From contig NJBF01000087.1 in NCBI GenBank assembly GCA_003144275.1, positions 1 through 7,016 on the forward strand: a DNA stretch of 7,016 nucleotides, read 5' to 3'. The notes under the pieces are model-generated. The model was not told the origin of the DNA. It did not search any database and saw nothing but the letters and a program-made list of their open reading frames with translations. The number at the start of each line of letters is the position of its first letter. Positions within the stretch are counted from its first letter, which is position 1. The stretch comes from Candidatus Heimdallarchaeota archaeon B3_Heim. GTDB taxonomy: Archaea; Asgardarchaeota; Heimdallarchaeia; Hodarchaeales; Hodarchaeaceae. A program made the translations under genes and the position numbers. This document shows, one piece after another, positions 707 to 7,016 of this stretch.

Positions 707-2677
707 TCAACTACCTCCGAAAAGAGCTTTTCGAAAAAAAGCTACTTCTTTAGTAAGTGAATCAATATTGCTCTCTTTTTTCCGAAACCCATGACCCTCA
801 CCCTCATATTCCACGTATTCATATAAAATTCCTTTTCTCTTCAGTACGTTTACCATTTCTCGAGAAATTTCGGGGGTGACAACTTTATCTTCTTTTCCTT
901 GAAATAAGATCATTGGTGATTTCAACTTATCTAAATGATTGATCGGAGAACGTTCTTTGTAAATTTCTTCCCCTTCAATCGAATCTAATGATGCTCCCAT
1001 AAGCCAATCAATGTAACGTGATTCAAATTTGTGAGTTAATTTTGTTAAAGTAACTAGGTTTCCTATACCAAAATAACTAGCCCCCACTTGAAACGTATCG
1101 GGAAATAAGGTCAAAGCACGTTGCACAGCATATCCACCTGCACTTCCACCCGTAATGGCGACTTTAGGTGCAACTAGATCCTGTTTTACCAAATAATCAA
1201 CAGCATCTTTCACATCTTGAGCATCTATTACACCCCATTGAGTCTTTAATGAATCTCGGTATCGTCTCCCAAATGAGGTACTCCCACTATAATCAACATC
1301 AAAAAGGGCATACCCTTGATTCGTCCTAAACTGTTTTGATAATAGATACTGGCAATTAGTTCTTCCAGTAGGTCCCCCGTGAACCATCACAATCAGGGGG
1401 GGTCGTTCTCCTTCAGGAACACGATAATTCTTGTTCTTAGGTAAATATAATTTGCCATAAGCTTTTCTACCATCTGAGGTAGGATATTCTATCTGTTGTG
1501 GGATAGAAATGTCTTGTTCAGTCATTGGATTTGAAAAACTTGTTTTAATAACCTCATACTCCATGGTTTGGAGATCAAGCACAACTAAAGCAGCGGGTTT
1601 TTGAAAACTATGTCCTATAAAAACTATTTCATGTTCAGAATAAGTTTGGAGGGAGATGTGGTCATCAAAGGGAGAATTGAGTGATTCTAACACGTTCGTT
1701 ATGGGGTCGATTAAAGCAAGAAATCCTTTTCCTTCTTTGTCGTAATTTGCGACAATTCGACCGCTAGGTAAGAAATCCCAACTAATAAATCGAAACACCC
1801 ACATAGGAAGACCAAATTCTACATTCTCTTGTGTGATTGCTCGAATTTCATCATTCTCATATTGATAAAAATTCCACCAGTTTCTTGGACTATCTTCAGG
1901 TTGATCCTCTTCATCTAAGACAAAATAGAGTCGTCCTTGTTTATCAAATCGGATACTACCAATAGATATCCCTTTTCCTCCCGCAATGATCTTTTCTGAC
2001 CCTGTTACGACGTTTCCATTCTCAAAGTTGGCCATTACTAACTCTGTGGAATTCCATGGCATATTAGGATGATTATACTGCAGCCAAGCAAGCTGATGGC
2101 CCTCCGTTGAGATGATTGGGTCAAAATAGAAGTCTTTTCCTTCCACAATTATCGTTGGTTCCTGAATTGAGTTTTTGGTAATATCAATGACTGCGATATA
2201 ATTCTCATTTTCTTTGTCAGCAAATTCCTTTTCATATACAAAAATTAGTGTTTTACCATCTGGTGTTAAGAGTGGAGCAGCATACTTACCCAATGATCCA
2301 TCTATATTTTTTTCCGGCGTTAATGGAATAGGGGCCTCATCTGCTATGATTTTTTTTCTATAAAGTCGTTGGTCCACAAAATTTACATAGTAGATATACT
2401 CTTCATCTACTTCCCAACAAAAACCCCCATATTCATGAACCCGACTTCGAACATTTACCTCTTCAGGCAAGATATCAAAAATTCTTCCCTCTTTACTCCG
2501 ACAAACAATAGCTATCCTACCATTCTCAGCAGGACGGAGTTCAGACCAGTAAATATTATTGTTAACTATCTTAACGTTATAAAAAGAGATAGTTTCCTCG
2601 AAAACCTGTTCAGGAGTAATATTAGAAACCCATTTGTGATAGGGTGTATTGTTTTGGAGTTTTTCCATTCCTAACAC
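707..2677 (-). CDS. S9 (prolyl oligopeptidase family) peptidase, acylaminoacyl/dipeptidyl aminopeptidase-like; the true start may be ATG 2668
   Basis: N-terminal propeller-like region with S9-type motifs (RSRVHEYGG, AWLQYNHPNMPW) and HGGPT. Catalytic triad motifs GGSAGG (Ser), QGKEDKVV (Asp) and EGEGHGF (His) are intact. An AGGTG SD-like motif precedes ATG 2668. Confidence 0.95.
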   Translation of the reverse strand: MLGMEKLQNNTPYHKWVSNITPEQVFEETISFYNVKIVNNNIYWSELRPAENGRIAIVCRSKEGRIFDILPEEVNVRSRVHEYGGFCWEVDEEYIYYVNFVDQRLYRKKIIADEAPIPLTPEKNIDGSLGKYAAPLLTPDGKTLIFVYEKEFADKENENYIAVIDITKNSIQEPTIIVEGKDFYFDPIISTEGHQLAWLQYNHPNMPWNSTELVMANFENGNVVTGSEKIIAGGKGISIGSIRFDKQGRLYFVLDEEDQPEDSPRNWWNFYQYENDEIRAITQENVEFGLPMWVFRFISWDFLPSGRIVANYDKEGKGFLALIDPITNVLESLNSPFDDHISLQTYSEHEIVFIGHSFQKPAALVVLDLQTMEYEVIKTSFSNPMTEQDISIPQQIEYPTSDGRKAYGKLYLPKNKNYRVPEGERPPLIVMVHGGPTGRTNCQYLLSKQFRTNQGYALFDVDYSGSTSFGRRYRDSLKTQWGVIDAQDVKDAVDYLVKQDLVAPKVAITGGSAGGYAVQRALTLFPDTFQVGASYFGIGNLVTLTKLTHKFESRYIDWLMGASLDSIEGEEIYKERSPINHLDKLKSPMILFQGKEDKVVTPEISREMVNVLKRKGILYEYVEYEGEGHGFRKKESNIDSLTKEVAFFRKALFGGS

Positions 2678-3057: not shown

Positions 3058-3549
3058 TCATTCTTCTGATAAATTTGGCGCTAAAATAGTCATCAACTCT
3101 CTGGGGTTTTGACCTGGTACCCACTGGCTTTTGGCTTGGGCTACTCTCTGCCTTTTATATTCCCAATATTTCGTGGAATTCTCGTCCTCCTCATCAGGAA
3201 CATCCTTGTTGTCTTTTTGAGCTTCAATTAATGATAAATTTCTGGTAATTTGGGTTTCTAAGTGGATTAAATACCCCTGAAGACGTTCGGAAATCGTTGG
3301 ATCGGATTCAAAATGACCAAGAATTTTCTCTAATACTTCCTGCCGATGGTCTTTCATAAATTGCCATAGAAGCTGAGATAATGGATTGATTTCGAAATAA
3401 AAGGTTTTTAATGCCATCATTACCTTATTTAAACTTGAAGCATCCAGTTTTGTAATACCTGGAGTTGTTTCGACAAGAACTGAGTCTTTAGTATCACTTA
3501 CTTCAATGATAATATGTTCTGTTAATTTCATCAATGAAACCTCACTCAT
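3058..3549 (-). CDS. Hypothetical protein (163 aa)
   Basis: Clean ORF with protein-like composition filling the space between C2 and C3; no recognised motif. Confidence 0.75.
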   Translation of the reverse strand: MSEVSLMKLTEHIIIEVSDTKDSVLVETTPGITKLDASSLNKVMMALKTFYFEINPLSQLLWQFMKDHRQEVLEKILGHFESDPTISERLQGYLIHLETQITRNLSLIEAQKDNKDVPDEEDENSTKYWEYKRQRVAQAKSQWVPGQNPRELMTILAPNLSEE

Positions 3550-3912: not shown

Positions 3913-4428
3913 TTATTTGTCACTTGATATCACTTGTTTAGCTAATATCCGTAATATTTCCTCAATTTGCGTATTGTCTGTGATTTCGGTTTCAAAGTAG
4001 TGAGAATTTAATTTCTTTGCTAGCTGTTTTCCTTCTTCTGTCGTAATTGCCTCTGTCTCTGCTTTAATACCCACCACCGCAATAGGAATTGGACTAGATA
4101 TAACTTTCTTAAACTCTTTGTGGAATGTAGTGACCTTAGTGAATGCCTTCCGATCATTTTTCTCAAACAAGATTATTCCTGCTACTGACCCCCGATAATA
4201 AGAGGAGCGCTGTTTACCGAAGAATTCCTCTCCTGCAATTATTACCAAAATGAGCGTTACTTGATTATTGTCGACATCTATTTTCTTGGTAGGGATATCT
4301 ACTCCGTGTGTCGGTAAATAGTCTGTATCGAATACATTGTCTGCAGTCAATCTACCAAATTTCAAATTTATTTTCGTATTATTGCCAAAAATACTAATTT
4401 TCAATAAATATTCATTCTTATTTGTCAT
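3913..4428 (-). CDS. Rab/Ras-like small GTPase-fold protein with degenerate G motifs (probable pseudo-GTPase)
   Basis: Retains Rab-like YLPTHGVD (G2), SYYRGS, IILFE, PIAVVG, EEGKQLAKKL and YFET. G1 lacks GK[ST], G3 DxxG reads IIAG and G4 NKxD reads IKAE. Confidence 0.88.
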   Translation of the reverse strand: MTNKNEYLLKISIFGNNTKINLKFGRLTADNVFDTDYLPTHGVDIPTKKIDVDNNQVTLILVIIAGEEFFGKQRSSYYRGSVAGIILFEKNDRKAFTKVTTFHKEFKKVISSPIPIAVVGIKAETEAITTEEGKQLAKKLNSHYFETEITDNTQIEEILRILAKQVISSDK

Positions 4429-4807: not shown

Positions 4808-4930
4808 CGGAGGTCAATTATTCAAAAACTTAACGTGTCAAACGAACACCCACTCGAAAGCGATAAGCATAAGAATCCCAATATCCATTGATGATGCTCG
4901 TTCACTAGATAATATTAATCAAAATACAAA

Positions 4931-5545
4931 GTGATAAAAATGAAAATTAAACATAATACCCGTTTGGTTGTTCTTATCGGGGCACTTATTGGAATAACCG
5001 CTCTCTCTATGTTGATTATCGGTTTTGGTCAACATGTGAATGCCTCTACACTCGAAACTCAATATCCTAGCTTCACTTCAATCTCAATGAATCTATTTTA
5101 TGAGGGTGTCGATGGTGAATCAATAATAGCTGGTCGTGAAAATTCAATAACTGTACTTGGCTATTCCCATAGTATCAGTAATCCGTACGACCGACTTACG
5201 GGAGACCTTACTGGTAAACAGCATTCTCCCCTTAGGATAATGAAATTAATTGACAAATCGACTCCAAAACTATATGAAAAATGTGTCAAAGGGAATATTG
5301 CTCCCTCGGTCATCCTACGTTTTTATTTCGAACCTACTGGGTTGAATTTTTATACTATTGAGCTCATCAATGTAAAGATCACTTCTGTTCAAGGATATGG
5401 AACCATAAGTGTCAACGAAATCCCTAGAGAAACCGTTTCTTTCACCTATACAACCATAAAATGGACTTACACTGAATATGCTGCGGATGGAACAGCCAAG
5501 GGTAATATTGAAGCTCAAGATGATTGGATCGACGCACCTAACTGA
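4931..5545 (+). CDS. hcp: Hcp/TssD family (type VI secretion tube) protein with an N-terminal signal peptide or TM segment; the true start may be ATG 4940
   Basis: Hcp motifs in order: GVDGES, ITVLGYSHSI, GKQHSPLRIMKLIDKSTPKLY..CVKG, FYTIEL.NVKITSV and ETVSFTY..IKWTY. N-terminus is basic MKIKHNTR, then about 20 hydrophobic residues, then VNA|S. A GTGAT SD-like motif precedes ATG 4940. Confidence 0.92.
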   Translation: MIKMKIKHNTRLVVLIGALIGITALSMLIIGFGQHVNASTLETQYPSFTSISMNLFYEGVDGESIIAGRENSITVLGYSHSISNPYDRLTGDLTGKQHSPLRIMKLIDKSTPKLYEKCVKGNIAPSVILRFYFEPTGLNFYTIELINVKITSVQGYGTISVNEIPRETVSFTYTTIKWTYTEYAADGTAKGNIEAQDDWIDAPN

Positions 5546-5556
5546 CGTGAAGCAGT

Positions 5557-6222
5557 ATGAAACCAAAGAATGTGTCATTAGTATTTCTATTAGTACTACT
5601 ATCATTTGGTTCATTTTCCTTCCTTACTCTTACTGGTGCGATTCTTCTCGATACTGATGTCTCAATTTCAAAAGTAACTCAAAACGGATCGAGTTTCTGG
5701 ATTACTCTTGATTACGATTTTTCTGTTGCCCCAGCTAGAGAAGAAACGGAATCATTGGTGGTTCTTATCTTACTTACGCTCCCGTTAGGTGATACAAATC
5801 AGTATGTTGGATCATTGTTATTTTTCCGTACCACTACTGGAAATAATTTACTGTTCTGGATGCTTGGTGACCCATACGCCAGCGTTGGCTTATGGCAATC
5901 GGGAAGTGAAGATGAGCATTTTCAAGTGGCTTATAACCAGCTTTCTTTGATATTCATTGAGTGCCCAGATATGGACGATCCCGATCTGAGTATTATTTCT
6001 CTGGCGAAGCTATTAGAGATTGGCACTATCGACCAAATTACTGTTGATTTTCAGCCAATCCTGAATACGTTTCTACCTGACTTACAATCCATAGAAGTAA
6101 TTCACCTGGATAGTACTTCAACAACCACAACAAAAGCCAAAGGATTTCCAGGTTTTCTTCTTCCCGTAAATCTGGGAATCTTGATTCTCATCGGGTTAAA
6201 ACACAGGAAGAAGACCCCTTAA
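5557..6222 (+). CDS. Secreted surface protein with a PGF-CTERM-like (archaeosortase-type) C-terminal sorting signal
   Basis: Signal peptide MKPK + hydrophobic stretch + LTGA|. C-terminus has the STSTTTT linker, PGF, a hydrophobic helix and the basic tail KHRKK. It starts 11 nt after the hcp stop. Confidence 0.85.
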   Translation: MKPKNVSLVFLLVLLSFGSFSFLTLTGAILLDTDVSISKVTQNGSSFWITLDYDFSVAPAREETESLVVLILLTLPLGDTNQYVGSLLFFRTTTGNNLLFWMLGDPYASVGLWQSGSEDEHFQVAYNQLSLIFIECPDMDDPDLSIISLAKLLEIGTIDQITVDFQPILNTFLPDLQSIEVIHLDSTSTTTTKAKGFPGFLLPVNLGILILIGLKHRKKTP

Positions 6223-6225
6223 ATC

Positions 6226-6356
6226 ATTGAAAGACAATTGAGGACTAGGGGAACTCATCCTCTTTCTCCCTCATTTTTGCTGTCACATTTTAGTAGAATA
6301 ATGTGAAAAGGGTCAGTCCTTTCATTTACCCACTTCTGATCTGGTGGTCTTTCAAT
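6226..6356. other. 131-bp intergenic element bounded by a perfect 10-bp inverted repeat, with nested stems
   Basis: ATTGAAAGAC 6226-6235 / GTCTTTCAAT 6347-6356; AGGACT 6241-6246 / AGTCCT 6315-6320; TCACATT 6283-6289 / AATGTGA 6300-6306. It lies between convergent genes. Confidence 0.6.
6295..6320 (+). repeat. Partial repeat copy C5
   Basis: AGAATAATGTGAAAAGGGTCAGTCCT vs C3 3766-3791 AGAATAATATGGAAAGTGCCAGTCCT, 22/26 ungapped. Upstream AGGACTA (6241-6247) resembles the AGGGCTA block. Confidence 0.6.
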
Positions 6357-6383
6357 TTTCTATTAATAAAAGTTTTTTTACTT

Positions 6384-6608
6384 CTACCATCGTCCTGTGC
6401 GCTTTTTACTCCGAGGATGTTGTTTTTTACTGCGAAACATACTGAGCTTCTTTCGTCGCTTATCACCTTTATTTCGCTTCTTATAATGGACGACTTCCCC
6501 CCGTCTTAATCTTCTTCCCATTTTTTTTTCTGCTACCTGTCGCGGTTCCGATTTTCCTGAGTCTCCAAACCGTTTATCCCCTTTTTTATTCCTAAAAATC
6601 CTCACCAT
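6384..6608 (-). pseudogene. HNH endonuclease-like ORF (HNH_3-type) with substituted catalytic residues; pseudogene, inactive derivative or sequence errors
   Basis: RQVAEKKMGRRLRRGEVVHYKKRNKGDKRRKKL...H follows the spacing of the HR.VAE..LGR.L...EVVHH.N.NK.DN...NL consensus, but key His and Asn positions read P, Y, K, K and K. Confidence 0.7.
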
Positions 6609-6630
6609 CTAAATCTCTTCCCTTTCCATT

Positions 6631-6762
6631 TTATCTTTTTGATTTCCTGTGAGTTGGATTCAGTTGATTTGCTCTGTTGTTCCTGTCGGCTTTATAACTG
6701 CTATTCATTGGATTTTTTACATTCCCCCTCTGATTACTACCTTTTCTTTTACCCATCTTCAT
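6631..6762 (-). CDS. Small basic protein (43 aa) with an NNRANQLNP motif, not in the ORF track
   Basis: Hand translation: MKMGKRKGSNQRGNVKNPMNSSYKADRNNRANQLNPTHRKSKR*. It contains an internal pseudo-repeat (NQRGNVKNP / NNRANQLNP) and ends 22 nt before the HNH ORF start. Confidence 0.6.
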   Translation of the reverse strand: MKMGKRKGSNQRGNVKNPMNSSYKADRNNRANQLNPTHRKSKR

Positions 6763-7016
6763 TCACTATCATGACTAGATTTGTCAGACAACTCTTGAAA
6801 AGAGTTCTGGACAGGATGAGTCACACATCCGCTATCCGGCAGATTAGCACCACTAAAAGGGTTACTATTCATTGGGACTACTTGAAGCGTCCTTACTGCT
6901 GATATCCCCAGCGCTAATACCTCTCACGTCTAAAGGGTCATTCTTCTCTTGCCTTTGACGGGTAACTCGTCTCACGTAGTTACAAGTGAATAAGACCCAA
7001 GAAGTTAGGAATTTTT

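What the first reader, a model, noticed from the sequence alone, without database searches (positions are those of the whole stretch)
4931..5545. Orphan T6SS Hcp tube protein with a Sec-type signal peptide in an archaeon
Seen: a full Hcp domain preceded by a tripartite signal (basic, hydrophobic, VNA|S) and a short linker, with no other tss or phage-tail gene in the window. Established: canonical Hcp lacks a signal peptide, stacks into hexameric rings in the cytoplasm and is expelled by sheath contraction; T6SS is a bacterial system. Inference: a domesticated tube protein exported via Sec that may build extracellular rings, filaments or channels independently of a contractile machine, probably acquired from bacteria.
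Basis: partly seen in the sequence, partly recalled or inferred. Interest (0 to 1): 0.8.

Follow-up and report, generated by a model that had tools for sequence, protein, structure and literature searches.

The report
Exported Hcp with anchored partner, Asgard
An Asgard (Hodarchaeales-type) archaeon encodes a true Hcp tube-protein fold behind a conserved secretion signal, always next to a surface-anchored partner and with no contractile injection machine in the genome, which suggests the Hcp fold has been reused as a cell-surface module.

Summary
The ORF at 4931-5545 (likely start ATG 4940) is a true Hcp: PF05638 E 9e-28, TIGR03344 above its cut-off, and a predicted fold with TM 0.84-0.91 to solved Hcp. 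A conserved, selected N-terminal signal precedes it (basic, about 21 hydrophobic residues, V-N-A|S).

- **Obligate partner.** In every Asgard locus examined, including paralogous cassettes and a distant family, Hcp is followed by a roughly 220-aa gene with no known family. It has a signal peptide, a β-sandwich ectodomain, a Ser/Thr stalk and a PGF-type C-terminal sorting signal. Two orthologs pass the curated Heimdall-CTERM model. The heimdallarchaeosortase is present in 22 of 22 genomes of the genus.
- **Not only archaeal.** Planctomycetota, Verrucomicrobiota and Dehalococcoidia relatives, and about 100 of the 149 nearest metagenomic representatives, also carry signal-like N-termini.

No sheath, VgrG, PAAR, gp25, gp19-tube or baseplate-J gene was found in the own genome (94% complete). 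No sheath gene was found in any of the 22 genomes of the genus.

Best reading: a Sec-exported Hcp held at the cell surface by a sortase-anchored partner. Ring formation, signal cleavage and Hcp-partner binding are inferred (complex prediction: weak support only). The direction of transfer is unresolved. No paper describing this was found. A first-stage note of this scan had already flagged the same two-gene module on this stretch.

The parts
4910..4919 (+). A/T-rich TATA-like element (taatattaat) about 21-30 nt upstream of ATG 4940; possible archaeal promoter for a short-leader or leaderless transcript
   Evidence: Read directly from the sequence. Inference only, because the region is AT-rich (genome GC 36%). 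The bacterial-type promoter scan is not informative here.
4940..5545 (+). Hcp gene: 201 aa from ATG 4940, or 204 aa from the alternative GTG 4931; stop TGA at 5543-5545
   Evidence: ORF list; PF05638 and TIGR03344 above their cut-offs; homologs begin at the ATG position.
4940..5044 (+). N-terminal Sec-type signal: n-region MKIKHNTR, h-region of about 21 residues, c-region GQHVNA. Predicted cleavage after Ala (5042-5044), or alternatively an uncleaved signal anchor
   Evidence: Pattern conserved in 22 + 10 homologs, with V/A at -3 and A/T at -1; dN/dS 0.16-0.47 in this segment; modelled as helix 3-32. Cleavage itself is inferred.
5045..5086 (+). Short polar linker (STLETQYPSFTSIS) between the predicted cleavage site and the Hcp domain
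   Evidence: Alignment A1; low model confidence here (pLDDT 53-69).
5087..5542 (+). Hcp β-barrel domain, from Met53 (equivalent to Met1 of canonical Hcp) to the C-terminus
   Evidence: Pfam match at residues 57-180; Foldseek TM(target) 0.84-0.91 to 7fcf, 8yun, 1y12, 3eaa and 4tv4; profile search of PDB sequences, best hit 7fcf at 104 bits.
5557..6222 (+). Partner gene (221 aa), starting 11 nt after the Hcp stop codon: signal peptide, β-sandwich ectodomain, Ser/Thr stalk and C-terminal sorting signal. No Pfam or NCBIfam family
   Evidence: Immediately downstream of Hcp in all Asgard loci. AF2 ectodomain pLDDT 85-93. No convincing fold relative.
5557..5640 (+). Partner signal peptide (MKPKN..., hydrophobic core, LTGA|I)
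   Evidence: Read from the sequence and from alignments A2/A3. Inference.
6142..6219 (+). Partner C-terminal tripartite sorting signal: GFPGF, a hydrophobic helix, then KHRKK (PGF-type, Heimdall-CTERM-like), preceded by a TSTTTT stalk
   Evidence: Gly of PGF is invariant in A3. Ortholog tails reach the NF045529 Heimdall-CTERM cut-off in L016 (26.6) and L002 (24.4), and fall below it in L004 and L017; the window's own tail is not scored. The same tail type ends at least 26 other ORFs of the genome, and 5 of 6 tested pass NF045529.

Best explanation
The window carries a two-gene cell-surface cassette of Heimdall/Hodarchaeota-type Asgard archaea. Gene 1 is a genuine Hcp-fold protein made with an N-terminal Sec signal, so the Hcp domain ends up outside the cytoplasmic membrane, probably released by signal peptidase after V-N-A. 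Gene 2 is very probably co-transcribed (11-nt gap). It encodes a secreted β-sandwich protein on a Ser/Thr-rich stalk that ends in a PGF-type C-terminal sorting signal. That signal is most likely processed by the genome's heimdallarchaeosortase, which would leave the protein anchored to the membrane. The proposed mechanism is that the anchored partner holds the exported Hcp at the cell surface, where Hcp probably forms the hexameric ring typical of the fold. The pair would then act as a structural, adhesive or ligand-holding surface element, with no sheath, spike or baseplate involved. Shown here: the fold, the conserved and selected signal, the strict gene pairing, the sortase system, and the absence of detectable contractile-machine genes. 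Inferred: signal cleavage, ring formation, Hcp-partner binding, sortase processing of this particular tail, and the physiological role.
For: Hcp identity and fold.

The signal is real and translated. It is conserved in 22 homologs and 10 divergent Asgard copies. The first 52 codons have dN/dS of 0.16-0.47. Orthologs L016, L018 and L019 have no Met at the canonical Hcp start, so they can only start upstream.

The pairing is strict. A partner-profile hit lies directly downstream of Hcp in the window and all 18 fetched Asgard loci L002-L019 (some of which overlap), and in none of the 27 bacterial loci. The same 17 of 21 genomes of the genus have both genes. Second paralogous cassettes (G061, G064, G067, G072) and a different family (f19: G134, G137) keep the pair. 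Surrounding genes are otherwise unrelated.

Anchor system. NF045528 heimdallarchaeosortase scores 278 bits against a cut-off of 130 in the own genome and is present in 22 of 22 genomes of the genus. Heimdall-CTERM is matched above its cut-off by two partner orthologs. At least 26 other ORFs in the genome end in PGF-type tails, and 5 of 6 tested pass the model.

No contractile machine. VipB, phage sheath, gpD/VgrG, gp25, PAAR, gp19 tube and Baseplate_J all give 0 matches in the 94%-complete genome. Sheath and VipB give 0 of 22 in the genus, which includes single-contig genomes.

Binding. Complex prediction of mature Hcp with the partner ectodomain gave weak support: score 0.36 against a best control of 0.00. 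That mark was reached by 58 of 80 solved complexes and 2 of 110 mismatched pairs, but scores of 0.60 or under were reached by only 7 of those 80 and by both mismatches that passed. The runs agree in at least 82% of contacts, and the partner's pLDDT is at least 83.
Against: No experiment or expression data exist for any family member. The roughly 21-residue hydrophobic core is long for a cleaved signal and could be a permanent membrane anchor. The window partner's own tail does not score against NF045529. The complex prediction is only weak support, which by the tool's own calibration is more often wrong than right unless the pairing was likely beforehand. Ring formation was not modelled. The partner fold has no informative relative, so its role as a tether rests on gene order alone. 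Four genomes of the genus (70-88% complete) lack both genes, so the module is not essential.
Confidence: 0.55

Rival explanations
1. The N-terminal hydrophobic segment is not cleaved. It would be a signal anchor that holds the Hcp domain on the outer face of the membrane by its own helix (type II topology). The partner would then be a neighbour in a membrane-proximal complex rather than the tether.
For: The hydrophobic core is about 21 residues, which is the length of a transmembrane helix, and it is modelled as one continuous helix at residues 3-32. The segment is more conserved than most signal peptides (dN/dS 0.16-0.47).
Against: All homologs keep small or neutral residues at -3 and -1 (V/A-x-A/T) after a Gly-containing break. 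That is the signal-peptidase I pattern, and it survives even where the N-x-S/T sequon is lost. Archaeal Sec signals often have long cores (general knowledge, not tested here). No dedicated predictor was available.
Confidence: 0.25
2. The exported Hcp and its partner form a soluble or surface-bound binding module, for example a carrier for a small protein, glycan or other ligand. It would use the Hcp fold as a scaffold and would not build rings, tubes or channels.
For: The weak fold resemblances of the partner are to CBM9/DOMON-type ligand-binding sandwiches (Z 5-7). Bacterial signal-bearing relatives fuse Hcp to dockerin-like or other C-terminal domains, like modular extracellular proteins.
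Against: Those fold scores lie in the tool's stated noise range. Every solved member of the family that matched is a ring-forming Hcp. No ligand-binding residues could be identified.
Confidence: 0.15
3. It is a conventional cytoplasmic Hcp that starts at Met53 and serves an undetected or highly divergent contractile injection system elsewhere in the genome.
For: Met53 is invariant in the closer homologs and aligns with Met1 of canonical Hcp. The genome is a 94%-complete MAG in 103 contigs.
Against: The upstream 52 codons are open, conserved and under purifying selection in all homologs. Three orthologs lack that Met. Seven contractile-system markers are absent from the own genome, and sheath genes are absent from 22 of 22 genomes of the genus, including single-contig ones.
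Confidence: 0.03
4. The 7-kb contig is a bacterial contaminant mis-binned into an archaeal MAG.
For: The contig is short (7016 bp), and Hcp is overwhelmingly a bacterial family. MAG contamination is estimated at 3.9%.
Against: The same cassette lies on records titled Heimdall-/Hodarchaeota, including closed chromosomes of 3.2 and 4.9 Mb and contigs of 113-547 kb. The partner carries an Asgard-specific sorting signal. A Ras-family GTPase gene sits on the same contig.
Confidence: 0.02

Closest known systems
T6SS tube protein Hcp/TssD (PF05638, TIGR03344; e.g. P. aeruginosa Hcp1 1Y12, PDB 7FCF)
   Same: The sequence scores above the curated cut-offs, and the predicted β-barrel fold is the same (TM(target) 0.84-0.91). 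The N-terminal M-x-[LF]-x-[IV]-x-G-[IV]-x-GE motif of the domain is retained.
   Different: It has a conserved Sec-type signal and linker ahead of the domain. No TssB/C, VgrG, PAAR, gp25 or baseplate genes occur in the genome or genus. It is paired instead with a sortase-type anchored surface protein, and it lies in an archaeon. Canonical Hcp has no signal peptide and polymerises in the cytoplasm inside a sheath (established knowledge).
Signal-bearing bacterial Hcp homologs (Planctomycetota SP-Hcp-dockerin-like; Verrucomicrobiota SP-Hcp plus a C-terminal domain of about 100 aa; Dehalococcoidia lipoprotein-like SP-Hcp), seen here only as unannotated database sequences
   Same: An N-terminal signal lies directly before a complete Hcp domain. 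They share 30-37% identity with the window protein, and no T6SS genes are among the immediate neighbours tested.
   Different: They have no partner gene of the Asgard type. Anchoring or targeting seems to be built into the same polypeptide instead (a dockerin-like tail, an extra C-terminal domain, or a lipobox-like Cys).
Archaeosortase/exosortase C-terminal sorting systems (ArtA with PGF-CTERM in Haloferax; NCBIfam heimdallarchaeosortase NF045528 with Heimdall-CTERM NF045529)
   Same: The partner has an N-terminal signal, a Ser/Thr-rich stalk, and a PGF motif followed by a hydrophobic helix and a basic cluster at the extreme C-terminus. The cognate sortase is in the genome.
   Different: The window copy's tail is divergent (PGFLLPVN...KHRKK rather than PGFE...RRKR) and does not score against the model. 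Processing has never been shown experimentally for the Heimdall system, as far as the held literature shows.
Extracellular contractile injection systems and phage tail tubes (Afp1/gp19-type tubes)
   Same: They belong to the same broad tail-tube superfamily as Hcp (established knowledge).
   Different: No gp19-type tube, sheath, gp25, baseplate-J, spike or PAAR gene was detected. Those tubes are assembled in the cytoplasm and are not exported by Sec.

Membership tests
Hcp / TssD (PF05638, TIGR03344) | Sequence match above the curated thresholds | tested here: met
   PF05638 97.6 bits (cut-off 23.5). TIGR03344 78.7 bits (cut-off 58.9).
Hcp / TssD (PF05638, TIGR03344) | Hcp β-barrel fold | tested here: met
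   AF2 model with domain pLDDT mostly above 90. Foldseek probability 1.00 and TM(target) 0.84-0.91 to solved Hcp.
Hcp / TssD (PF05638, TIGR03344) | No signal peptide; made and polymerised in the cytoplasm | tested here: not met
   A conserved, selected N-terminal basic/hydrophobic/V-N-A|S segment precedes the domain.
Hcp / TssD (PF05638, TIGR03344) | Encoded in a genome with T6SS core genes (TssB/C sheath, VgrG, TssE/gp25, PAAR) | tested here: not met
   0 matches for VipB, gpD/VgrG, gp25 and PAAR in the own genome, which is 94% complete. VipB 0 of 22 in the genus.
Hcp / TssD (PF05638, TIGR03344) | Assembly into hexameric rings that stack into a tube | not tested
   No homo-oligomer prediction was run, because the single complex job went to the Hcp-partner question. 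This needs EM, SEC-MALS or a multimer prediction.
Sec (class I) signal peptide | Basic n-region, hydrophobic h-region, and a c-region with small residues at -3 and -1 | tested here: met
   By inspection of alignments A1 and the Asgard set: K/R in the first 8 residues, a core of about 21 residues, and V/A-x-A/T before S/T in all members.
Sec (class I) signal peptide | Actual cleavage by signal peptidase I (as opposed to a signal anchor) | not testable with these tools
   SignalP and DeepTMHMM are not available, and there are no proteomic data.
Heimdall-CTERM / heimdallarchaeosortase sorting system (for the partner, 5557-6222) | Cognate sortase encoded in the genome | tested here: met
   NF045528 at 277.9 bits (cut-off 130) at G000:C57. 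Present in 22 of 22 genomes of the genus.
Heimdall-CTERM / heimdallarchaeosortase sorting system (for the partner, 5557-6222) | C-terminal domain matching NF045529 above its cut-off (24 bits) | tested here: inconclusive
   The window tail gave no hit. Orthologs scored 26.6 (L016) and 24.4 (L002), which pass, and 15.4 (L004) and 14.8 (L017), which fail. The tail aligns column for column with the passing ones.
Heimdall-CTERM / heimdallarchaeosortase sorting system (for the partner, 5557-6222) | N-terminal signal peptide, and the sorting signal at the extreme C-terminus after a low-complexity stalk | tested here: met
   Seen in all 17 partner orthologs printed and in 7 divergent ones.
eCIS / phage contractile tail | Sheath, gp19-type tube, baseplate (gp25, gpJ) and spike genes | tested here: not met
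   PF04984, PF06841, PF04965, PF04865 and PF05954 all gave 0 matches in the own genome. Sheath 0 of 22 in the genus.
DOMON / CBM9-type β-sandwich (for the partner ectodomain) | Fold match clearly above background | tested here: inconclusive
   The best VIA-align Z scores are 7.0 and 6.7, and several DOMON/CBM9-type chains score Z 4.7-5.4. The tool states that a best Z of 7-8 is typical for models with no true match. Atlas TM is at most 0.50.

The most novel reading that the evidence does not exclude
Hcp rings, known only as the inner tube of cytoplasmic contractile injection machines, also exist as a large undescribed Sec-dependent branch. In Heimdall/Hodarchaeota-type Asgard archaea, that branch would build a sortase-anchored extracellular ring or tube assembly on the cell surface together with a dedicated partner protein. 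This would be a new kind of archaeal envelope structure in the closest prokaryotic relatives of eukaryotes, operating with no sheath, spike or baseplate.
Probability: 0.35. Interest if true: 0.8.

Novelty: new variant of a known kind. Interest (0 to 1): 0.62.

Why it matters
Hcp is a textbook example of a protein secreted without a signal peptide by a contractile machine. A conserved, selected, Sec-targeted Hcp with a dedicated anchored partner, in genomes with no detectable contractile machine, would show that the tail-tube fold has a second, machine-independent life outside the cell.

The data also reveal a much wider set of signal-bearing Hcps in Planctomycetota, Verrucomicrobiota, Chloroflexota and metagenomes. 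I found no description of these in the held literature.

For Asgard biology, the envelope is almost uncharacterised and cell-cell contact is central to models of eukaryogenesis. The cassette gives a defined, testable two-protein candidate for a surface structure, plus a concrete candidate substrate for the uncharacterised heimdallarchaeosortase.

Tried and rejected
- **Met53 start, cytoplasmic Hcp.** Rejected on conservation, dN/dS, and the three orthologs that lack that Met.
- **Type IV pilin-like (class III) signal.** Considered from the sequence and rejected. The residue before the hydrophobic core is R or K with no G/A at -1, and the core is followed by a V-x-A|S site.
- **V-N-A-S conserved as an N-glycosylation sequon rather than a cleavage site.** Less likely. 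Four homologs lose the Asn but keep the -3/-1 pattern.
- **Pfam Exosortase_EpsH (PF09721) and archaeosortase A (TIGR04125).** No match, or only 21 bits, in the own genome. The right model turned out to be NF045528.
- **Partner function by homology.** No Pfam or NCBIfam family. Foldseek against PDB found nothing at E <= 0.001. The ESM Atlas structure and feature searches gave TM of at most 0.50 and no usable feature hit. VIA-align wide gave only noise-range Z.
- **Donor direction.** A 53-row ML tree on 159 columns did not make Asgard one clade (at least 4 changes forced by starred branches). It is unrooted, has long branches, and its bacterial sampling is biased by the search patterns, so no donor is claimed.
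- **Expression.** No RNA holder was listed among public runs.
- **Bacterial promoter/terminator scan.** At background level, and not applicable to archaea.
- **Literature.** Searches on Hcp with Asgard, signal peptide, Sec-dependent or Hcp-like, and on Heimdall-CTERM, found no description of this protein class. The Zhang/Aravind 2012 toxin survey mentions Hcp1 only in a T6SS context.
- **PDB 7FCF.** The molecule name "Fimbrial protein" looked like a lead, but the entry title is "T6SS Hcp protein".

Full report
**1. What is there.** The window is the whole 7016-bp contig C9 of a 3.95-Mb MAG in 103 contigs. The MAG is 94% complete, 3.9% contaminated, and has 36% GC. The flagged ORF at 4931-5545 (+) exists. 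It matches Pfam T6SS_HCP (E 8.7e-28, residues 57-180) and NCBIfam TIGR03344 TssD (78.7 bits against a cut-off of 58.9). An AlphaFold2 model built on 22 homologs has a mean pLDDT of 84, with the Hcp domain mostly above 90. It superposes on solved T6SS Hcp subunits (7fcf, 8yun, 1y12, 3eaa, 4tv4) with TM(target) 0.84-0.91. A profile of the family finds 7fcf as the best solved sequence, at 104 bits. The Hcp assignment is therefore secure.

**2. The N-terminal signal is real.** Thirty-three homologs of about 200 aa were found at 44-92% identity. All 22 that I aligned keep the same layout: Met-Lys, basic residues, about 21 hydrophobic residues, a Gly-containing break, then V/A-x-A/T followed by S/T, then a short polar linker and the Hcp domain.
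- Homologs begin at the position of ATG 4940 rather than GTG 4931.
- Met53 aligns with Met1 of canonical Hcp, which raises the possibility of a downstream start.
- Three results argue against a downstream start. The 52 upstream codons are open in all homologs. Their pairwise dN/dS is 0.16-0.47, against 0.08-0.26 for most Hcp-domain comparisons. Three orthologs (L016, L018, L019) have Ala or Phe in place of that Met.
- Ten further divergent Asgard copies from other families, and second paralogs, all carry an equivalent signal.
- Cleavage after V-N-A is inferred from the -3/-1 rule. The core is long, so an uncleaved signal anchor remains a live alternative. Either way the Hcp domain faces outward.

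**3. Organism.** Homologous loci come from records titled Candidatus Heimdallarchaeota, Hodarchaeota, Hodarchaeum mangrovi and "Promethearchaeota", plus one "Thorarchaeota" MAG. They include two closed chromosomes. A Ras-family GTPase gene lies on the same contig. Mis-binning of a bacterial contig is therefore very unlikely.

**4. It is an orphan with respect to contractile machines.** The own genome has a single Hcp match. It has no match to VipB/TssC, phage sheath, gpD/VgrG, gp25/TssE, PAAR, gp19-type tube or Baseplate_J. Each of these models fired in control genomes, although gp19 did so only below its cut-off. Sheath and VipB are absent from all 22 genomes of the genus, including single-contig assemblies. 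Neighbourhoods on contigs of 79-547 kb show only unrelated housekeeping genes.

In every neighbourhood the only conserved neighbour is a gene of about 220 aa that starts 11-60 nt after the Hcp stop codon.
- A profile of this protein hits the ORF directly downstream of Hcp in the window and in all 18 fetched Asgard loci, some of which overlap. It hits nothing in the 27 bacterial loci.
- In a 400-genome scan of the phylum, Hcp was found in 26 genomes and the partner in 20.
- Within the window's genus, the same 17 of 21 other genomes have both genes.
- Second, divergent cassettes in four genomes, and cassettes in another family (f19), keep the pair. At least one further downstream ORF that the profile missed has the same architecture.
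- The partner has a signal peptide and a confidently modelled β-sandwich ectodomain (pLDDT 85-93), followed by a Ser/Thr stalk. It ends in (P/S/N)-G-(F/L/Y), then about 18 hydrophobic residues, then a Lys/Arg cluster.
- It has no Pfam or NCBIfam family. It has no convincing structural relative: Foldseek found nothing at E <= 0.001, and VIA-align gave a best Z of 7.0, with several DOMON/CBM9-type chains at Z 5-7. That lies in the tool's stated noise range.

**6. The anchor system.**
- A 257-aa ORF on contig C57 matches NCBIfam NF045528 "heimdallarchaeosortase" at 278 bits against a cut-off of 130. The family is present in 22 of 22 genomes of the genus.
- The companion model NF045529 "Heimdall-CTERM" is matched above its 24-bit cut-off by the tails of two partner orthologs and below it by two others.
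- The window's own tail (GFPGFLLPVNLGILILIGLKHRKKTP) is not scored at all, although it aligns column for column with those that pass.
- At least 26 other ORFs in the genome, most with N-terminal signals, end in PGF-type tails. Five of six tested pass NF045529.
- The partner is therefore best read as a somewhat divergent substrate of this sorting system. Processing itself is inferred.

**7. Do the two proteins bind?** One complex prediction was run, with mature Hcp residues 39-204 and partner residues 29-186, each supplied with its alignment. It gave weak support: score 0.36 against a best control of 0.00. The mark was reached by 58 of 80 solved complexes and 2 of 110 mismatched pairs. Scores of 0.60 or under were reached by only 7 of those 80 and by both mismatches that passed. 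The runs agreed in at least 82% of contacts, and the partner's pLDDT was at least 83. Given the strict gene pairing, the prior was already favourable. I treat the result as a mild addition, not a demonstration.

**8. Signal-bearing Hcp is not an archaeal peculiarity.** The nearest named bacterial relatives (30-37% identity) include several with signals:
- Planctomycetota proteins with a signal peptide, Hcp and a dockerin-like tail.
- Verrucomicrobiota proteins with a signal peptide, Hcp and a C-terminal domain of about 100 aa.
- A Dehalococcoidia protein with a lipoprotein-like signal and a Pro/Thr linker before Hcp.

Their immediate neighbours include no T6SS genes. An exhaustive search of 1.84 billion cluster representatives returned 3019 hits. 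Of the 149 nearest, 100 are single-domain Hcps with a basic and hydrophobic N-terminus, 13 look canonical, 13 have a non-hydrophobic extension, and 23 have several Hcp domains. One caveat is that the query included the signal peptide, which favours signal-bearing hits in the ranking.

A maximum-likelihood tree of 53 named sequences interleaves Asgard and bacterial signal-bearing Hcps. It is unrooted, short (159 columns) and biased in its sampling. Acquisition from bacteria remains plausible but is not shown.

**9. Mechanism proposed.** The steps, marked as shown or inferred, are:
- Sec export of both proteins. The sequence features are shown; export is inferred.
- Release of Hcp by signal peptidase (inferred).
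- Membrane anchoring of the partner by the heimdallarchaeosortase (inferred from the family models).
- Capture of Hcp at the cell surface by the partner ectodomain, probably as the hexameric ring typical of the fold. This is inferred from gene order and from weak complex support.

The role could be structural, adhesive or ligand-holding, and nothing here discriminates between these. The rivals are a self-anchored Hcp (0.25), a non-ring binding module (0.15), a cytoplasmic Hcp serving a hidden machine (0.03) and contamination (0.02).

**10. Novelty and score.**
- No paper in the held library links Hcp to Asgard archaea, or describes Sec-type Hcp or the Heimdall sorting system. Databases simply name these proteins "Hcp family type VI secretion system effector".
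- The protein passes the sequence and fold tests for the Hcp family. It fails two defining functional-context features: the absence of a signal peptide and a T6SS context.
- I class it as a new variant of a known kind.
- Interest is moderate to high (0.62). It would surprise T6SS specialists and offers a concrete handle on the Asgard envelope, but every functional step is still inference.
- A first-stage note of this scan (e1-5443946) had already flagged the same two-gene module on this stretch. My analysis reached the pairing independently and agrees with it.

Noticed in passing
P0045, P0046, P0047, P0053, P0054, P0056, P0062, P0075, P0076, P0081 (and P0052 with 7, P0134 with 5): Giant metagenomic proteins (1066-2164 aa) carry six tandem Hcp domains in one chain (P0045: PF05638 E 8.6e-231, 6 stretches, plus Big_13 and a faint dockerin match). 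That number equals the subunits of an Hcp ring, which suggests single-chain pseudo-hexamers. Several begin with a planctomycete-style ...LExRxLLS motif.
   Followed up: partly
L020:5893-6531, L022:5866-6588, L023:5872-6513: Planctomycetota Hcp homologs have a signal peptide and a C-terminal dockerin-like motif (D-x-N/T-G-D-G-x-V-D/N-L-L-D). The weak Dockerin_1 hit has E 0.003. Neighbours tested were an integrase, a POTRA protein, a radical-SAM enzyme and a T2SSE ATPase, and none was a T6SS gene.
   Followed up: partly
L031:5767-6504: A Dehalococcoidia (Chloroflexota) Hcp homolog has a lipoprotein-like signal (…LIVAC) and a Pro/Thr-rich linker before a full Hcp domain (PF05638 E 2.8e-42). Its C-terminal motif IKWTYTEYD…GKAKGNVEA is strikingly close to that of the Asgard family.
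   Followed up: partly
L024:2301-3092 and L037:909-1700: Verrucomicrobiota proteins of 263 aa combine a signal peptide, Hcp and a conserved, unassigned C-terminal domain of about 100 aa.
   Followed up: no
window 3913-4428 (-): A Ras-family small GTPase homolog of 171 aa (PF00071 E 1.5e-24) matches the profile only from position 21. By eye, the P-loop (GNNTKINLK instead of GxxxxGK[ST]), the DxxGQ motif (IIAGEE) and the NKxD motif look degenerate, so it may be a pseudo-GTPase.
   Followed up: no
window 707-2677 (-): A 656-aa prolyl-oligopeptidase-family (S9) serine peptidase with an N-terminal propeller-like region (PF00326 E 1.2e-41). It appears unrelated to the cassette.
   Followed up: no
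window 3058-3549 (-): A 163-aa ORF with only a sub-threshold PqqD-like hit (E 0.0017, 19.1 bits against a cut-off of 23.4).
   Followed up: no
G000:C57:77088-77687 (L047:1126-1899): The single heimdallarchaeosortase gene of this genome (NF045528, 278 bits). About half the genomes of the genus carry two copies.
   Followed up: partly
G000 genome-wide, e.g. C87:43124-52273 (3049 aa), C51:147-3416, C36:12403-14868: At least 26 ORFs end in a PGF(E), hydrophobic, Arg/Lys-rich tail, and most have N-terminal signal peptides. This gives a sizeable predicted Heimdall-CTERM surface proteome that includes very large proteins.
   Followed up: partly
L004:11650-12939 and L005:1750-3039: In one lineage, an IS605 OrfB/TnpB (Cas12f-like) gene sits directly downstream of the Hcp-partner cassette.
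   Followed up: no
window 6223-7016: There is no convincing gene, tRNA or repeat after the partner gene, only short low-complexity ORFs. A T-run at about 6270-6280 may end the transcript.
   Followed up: no
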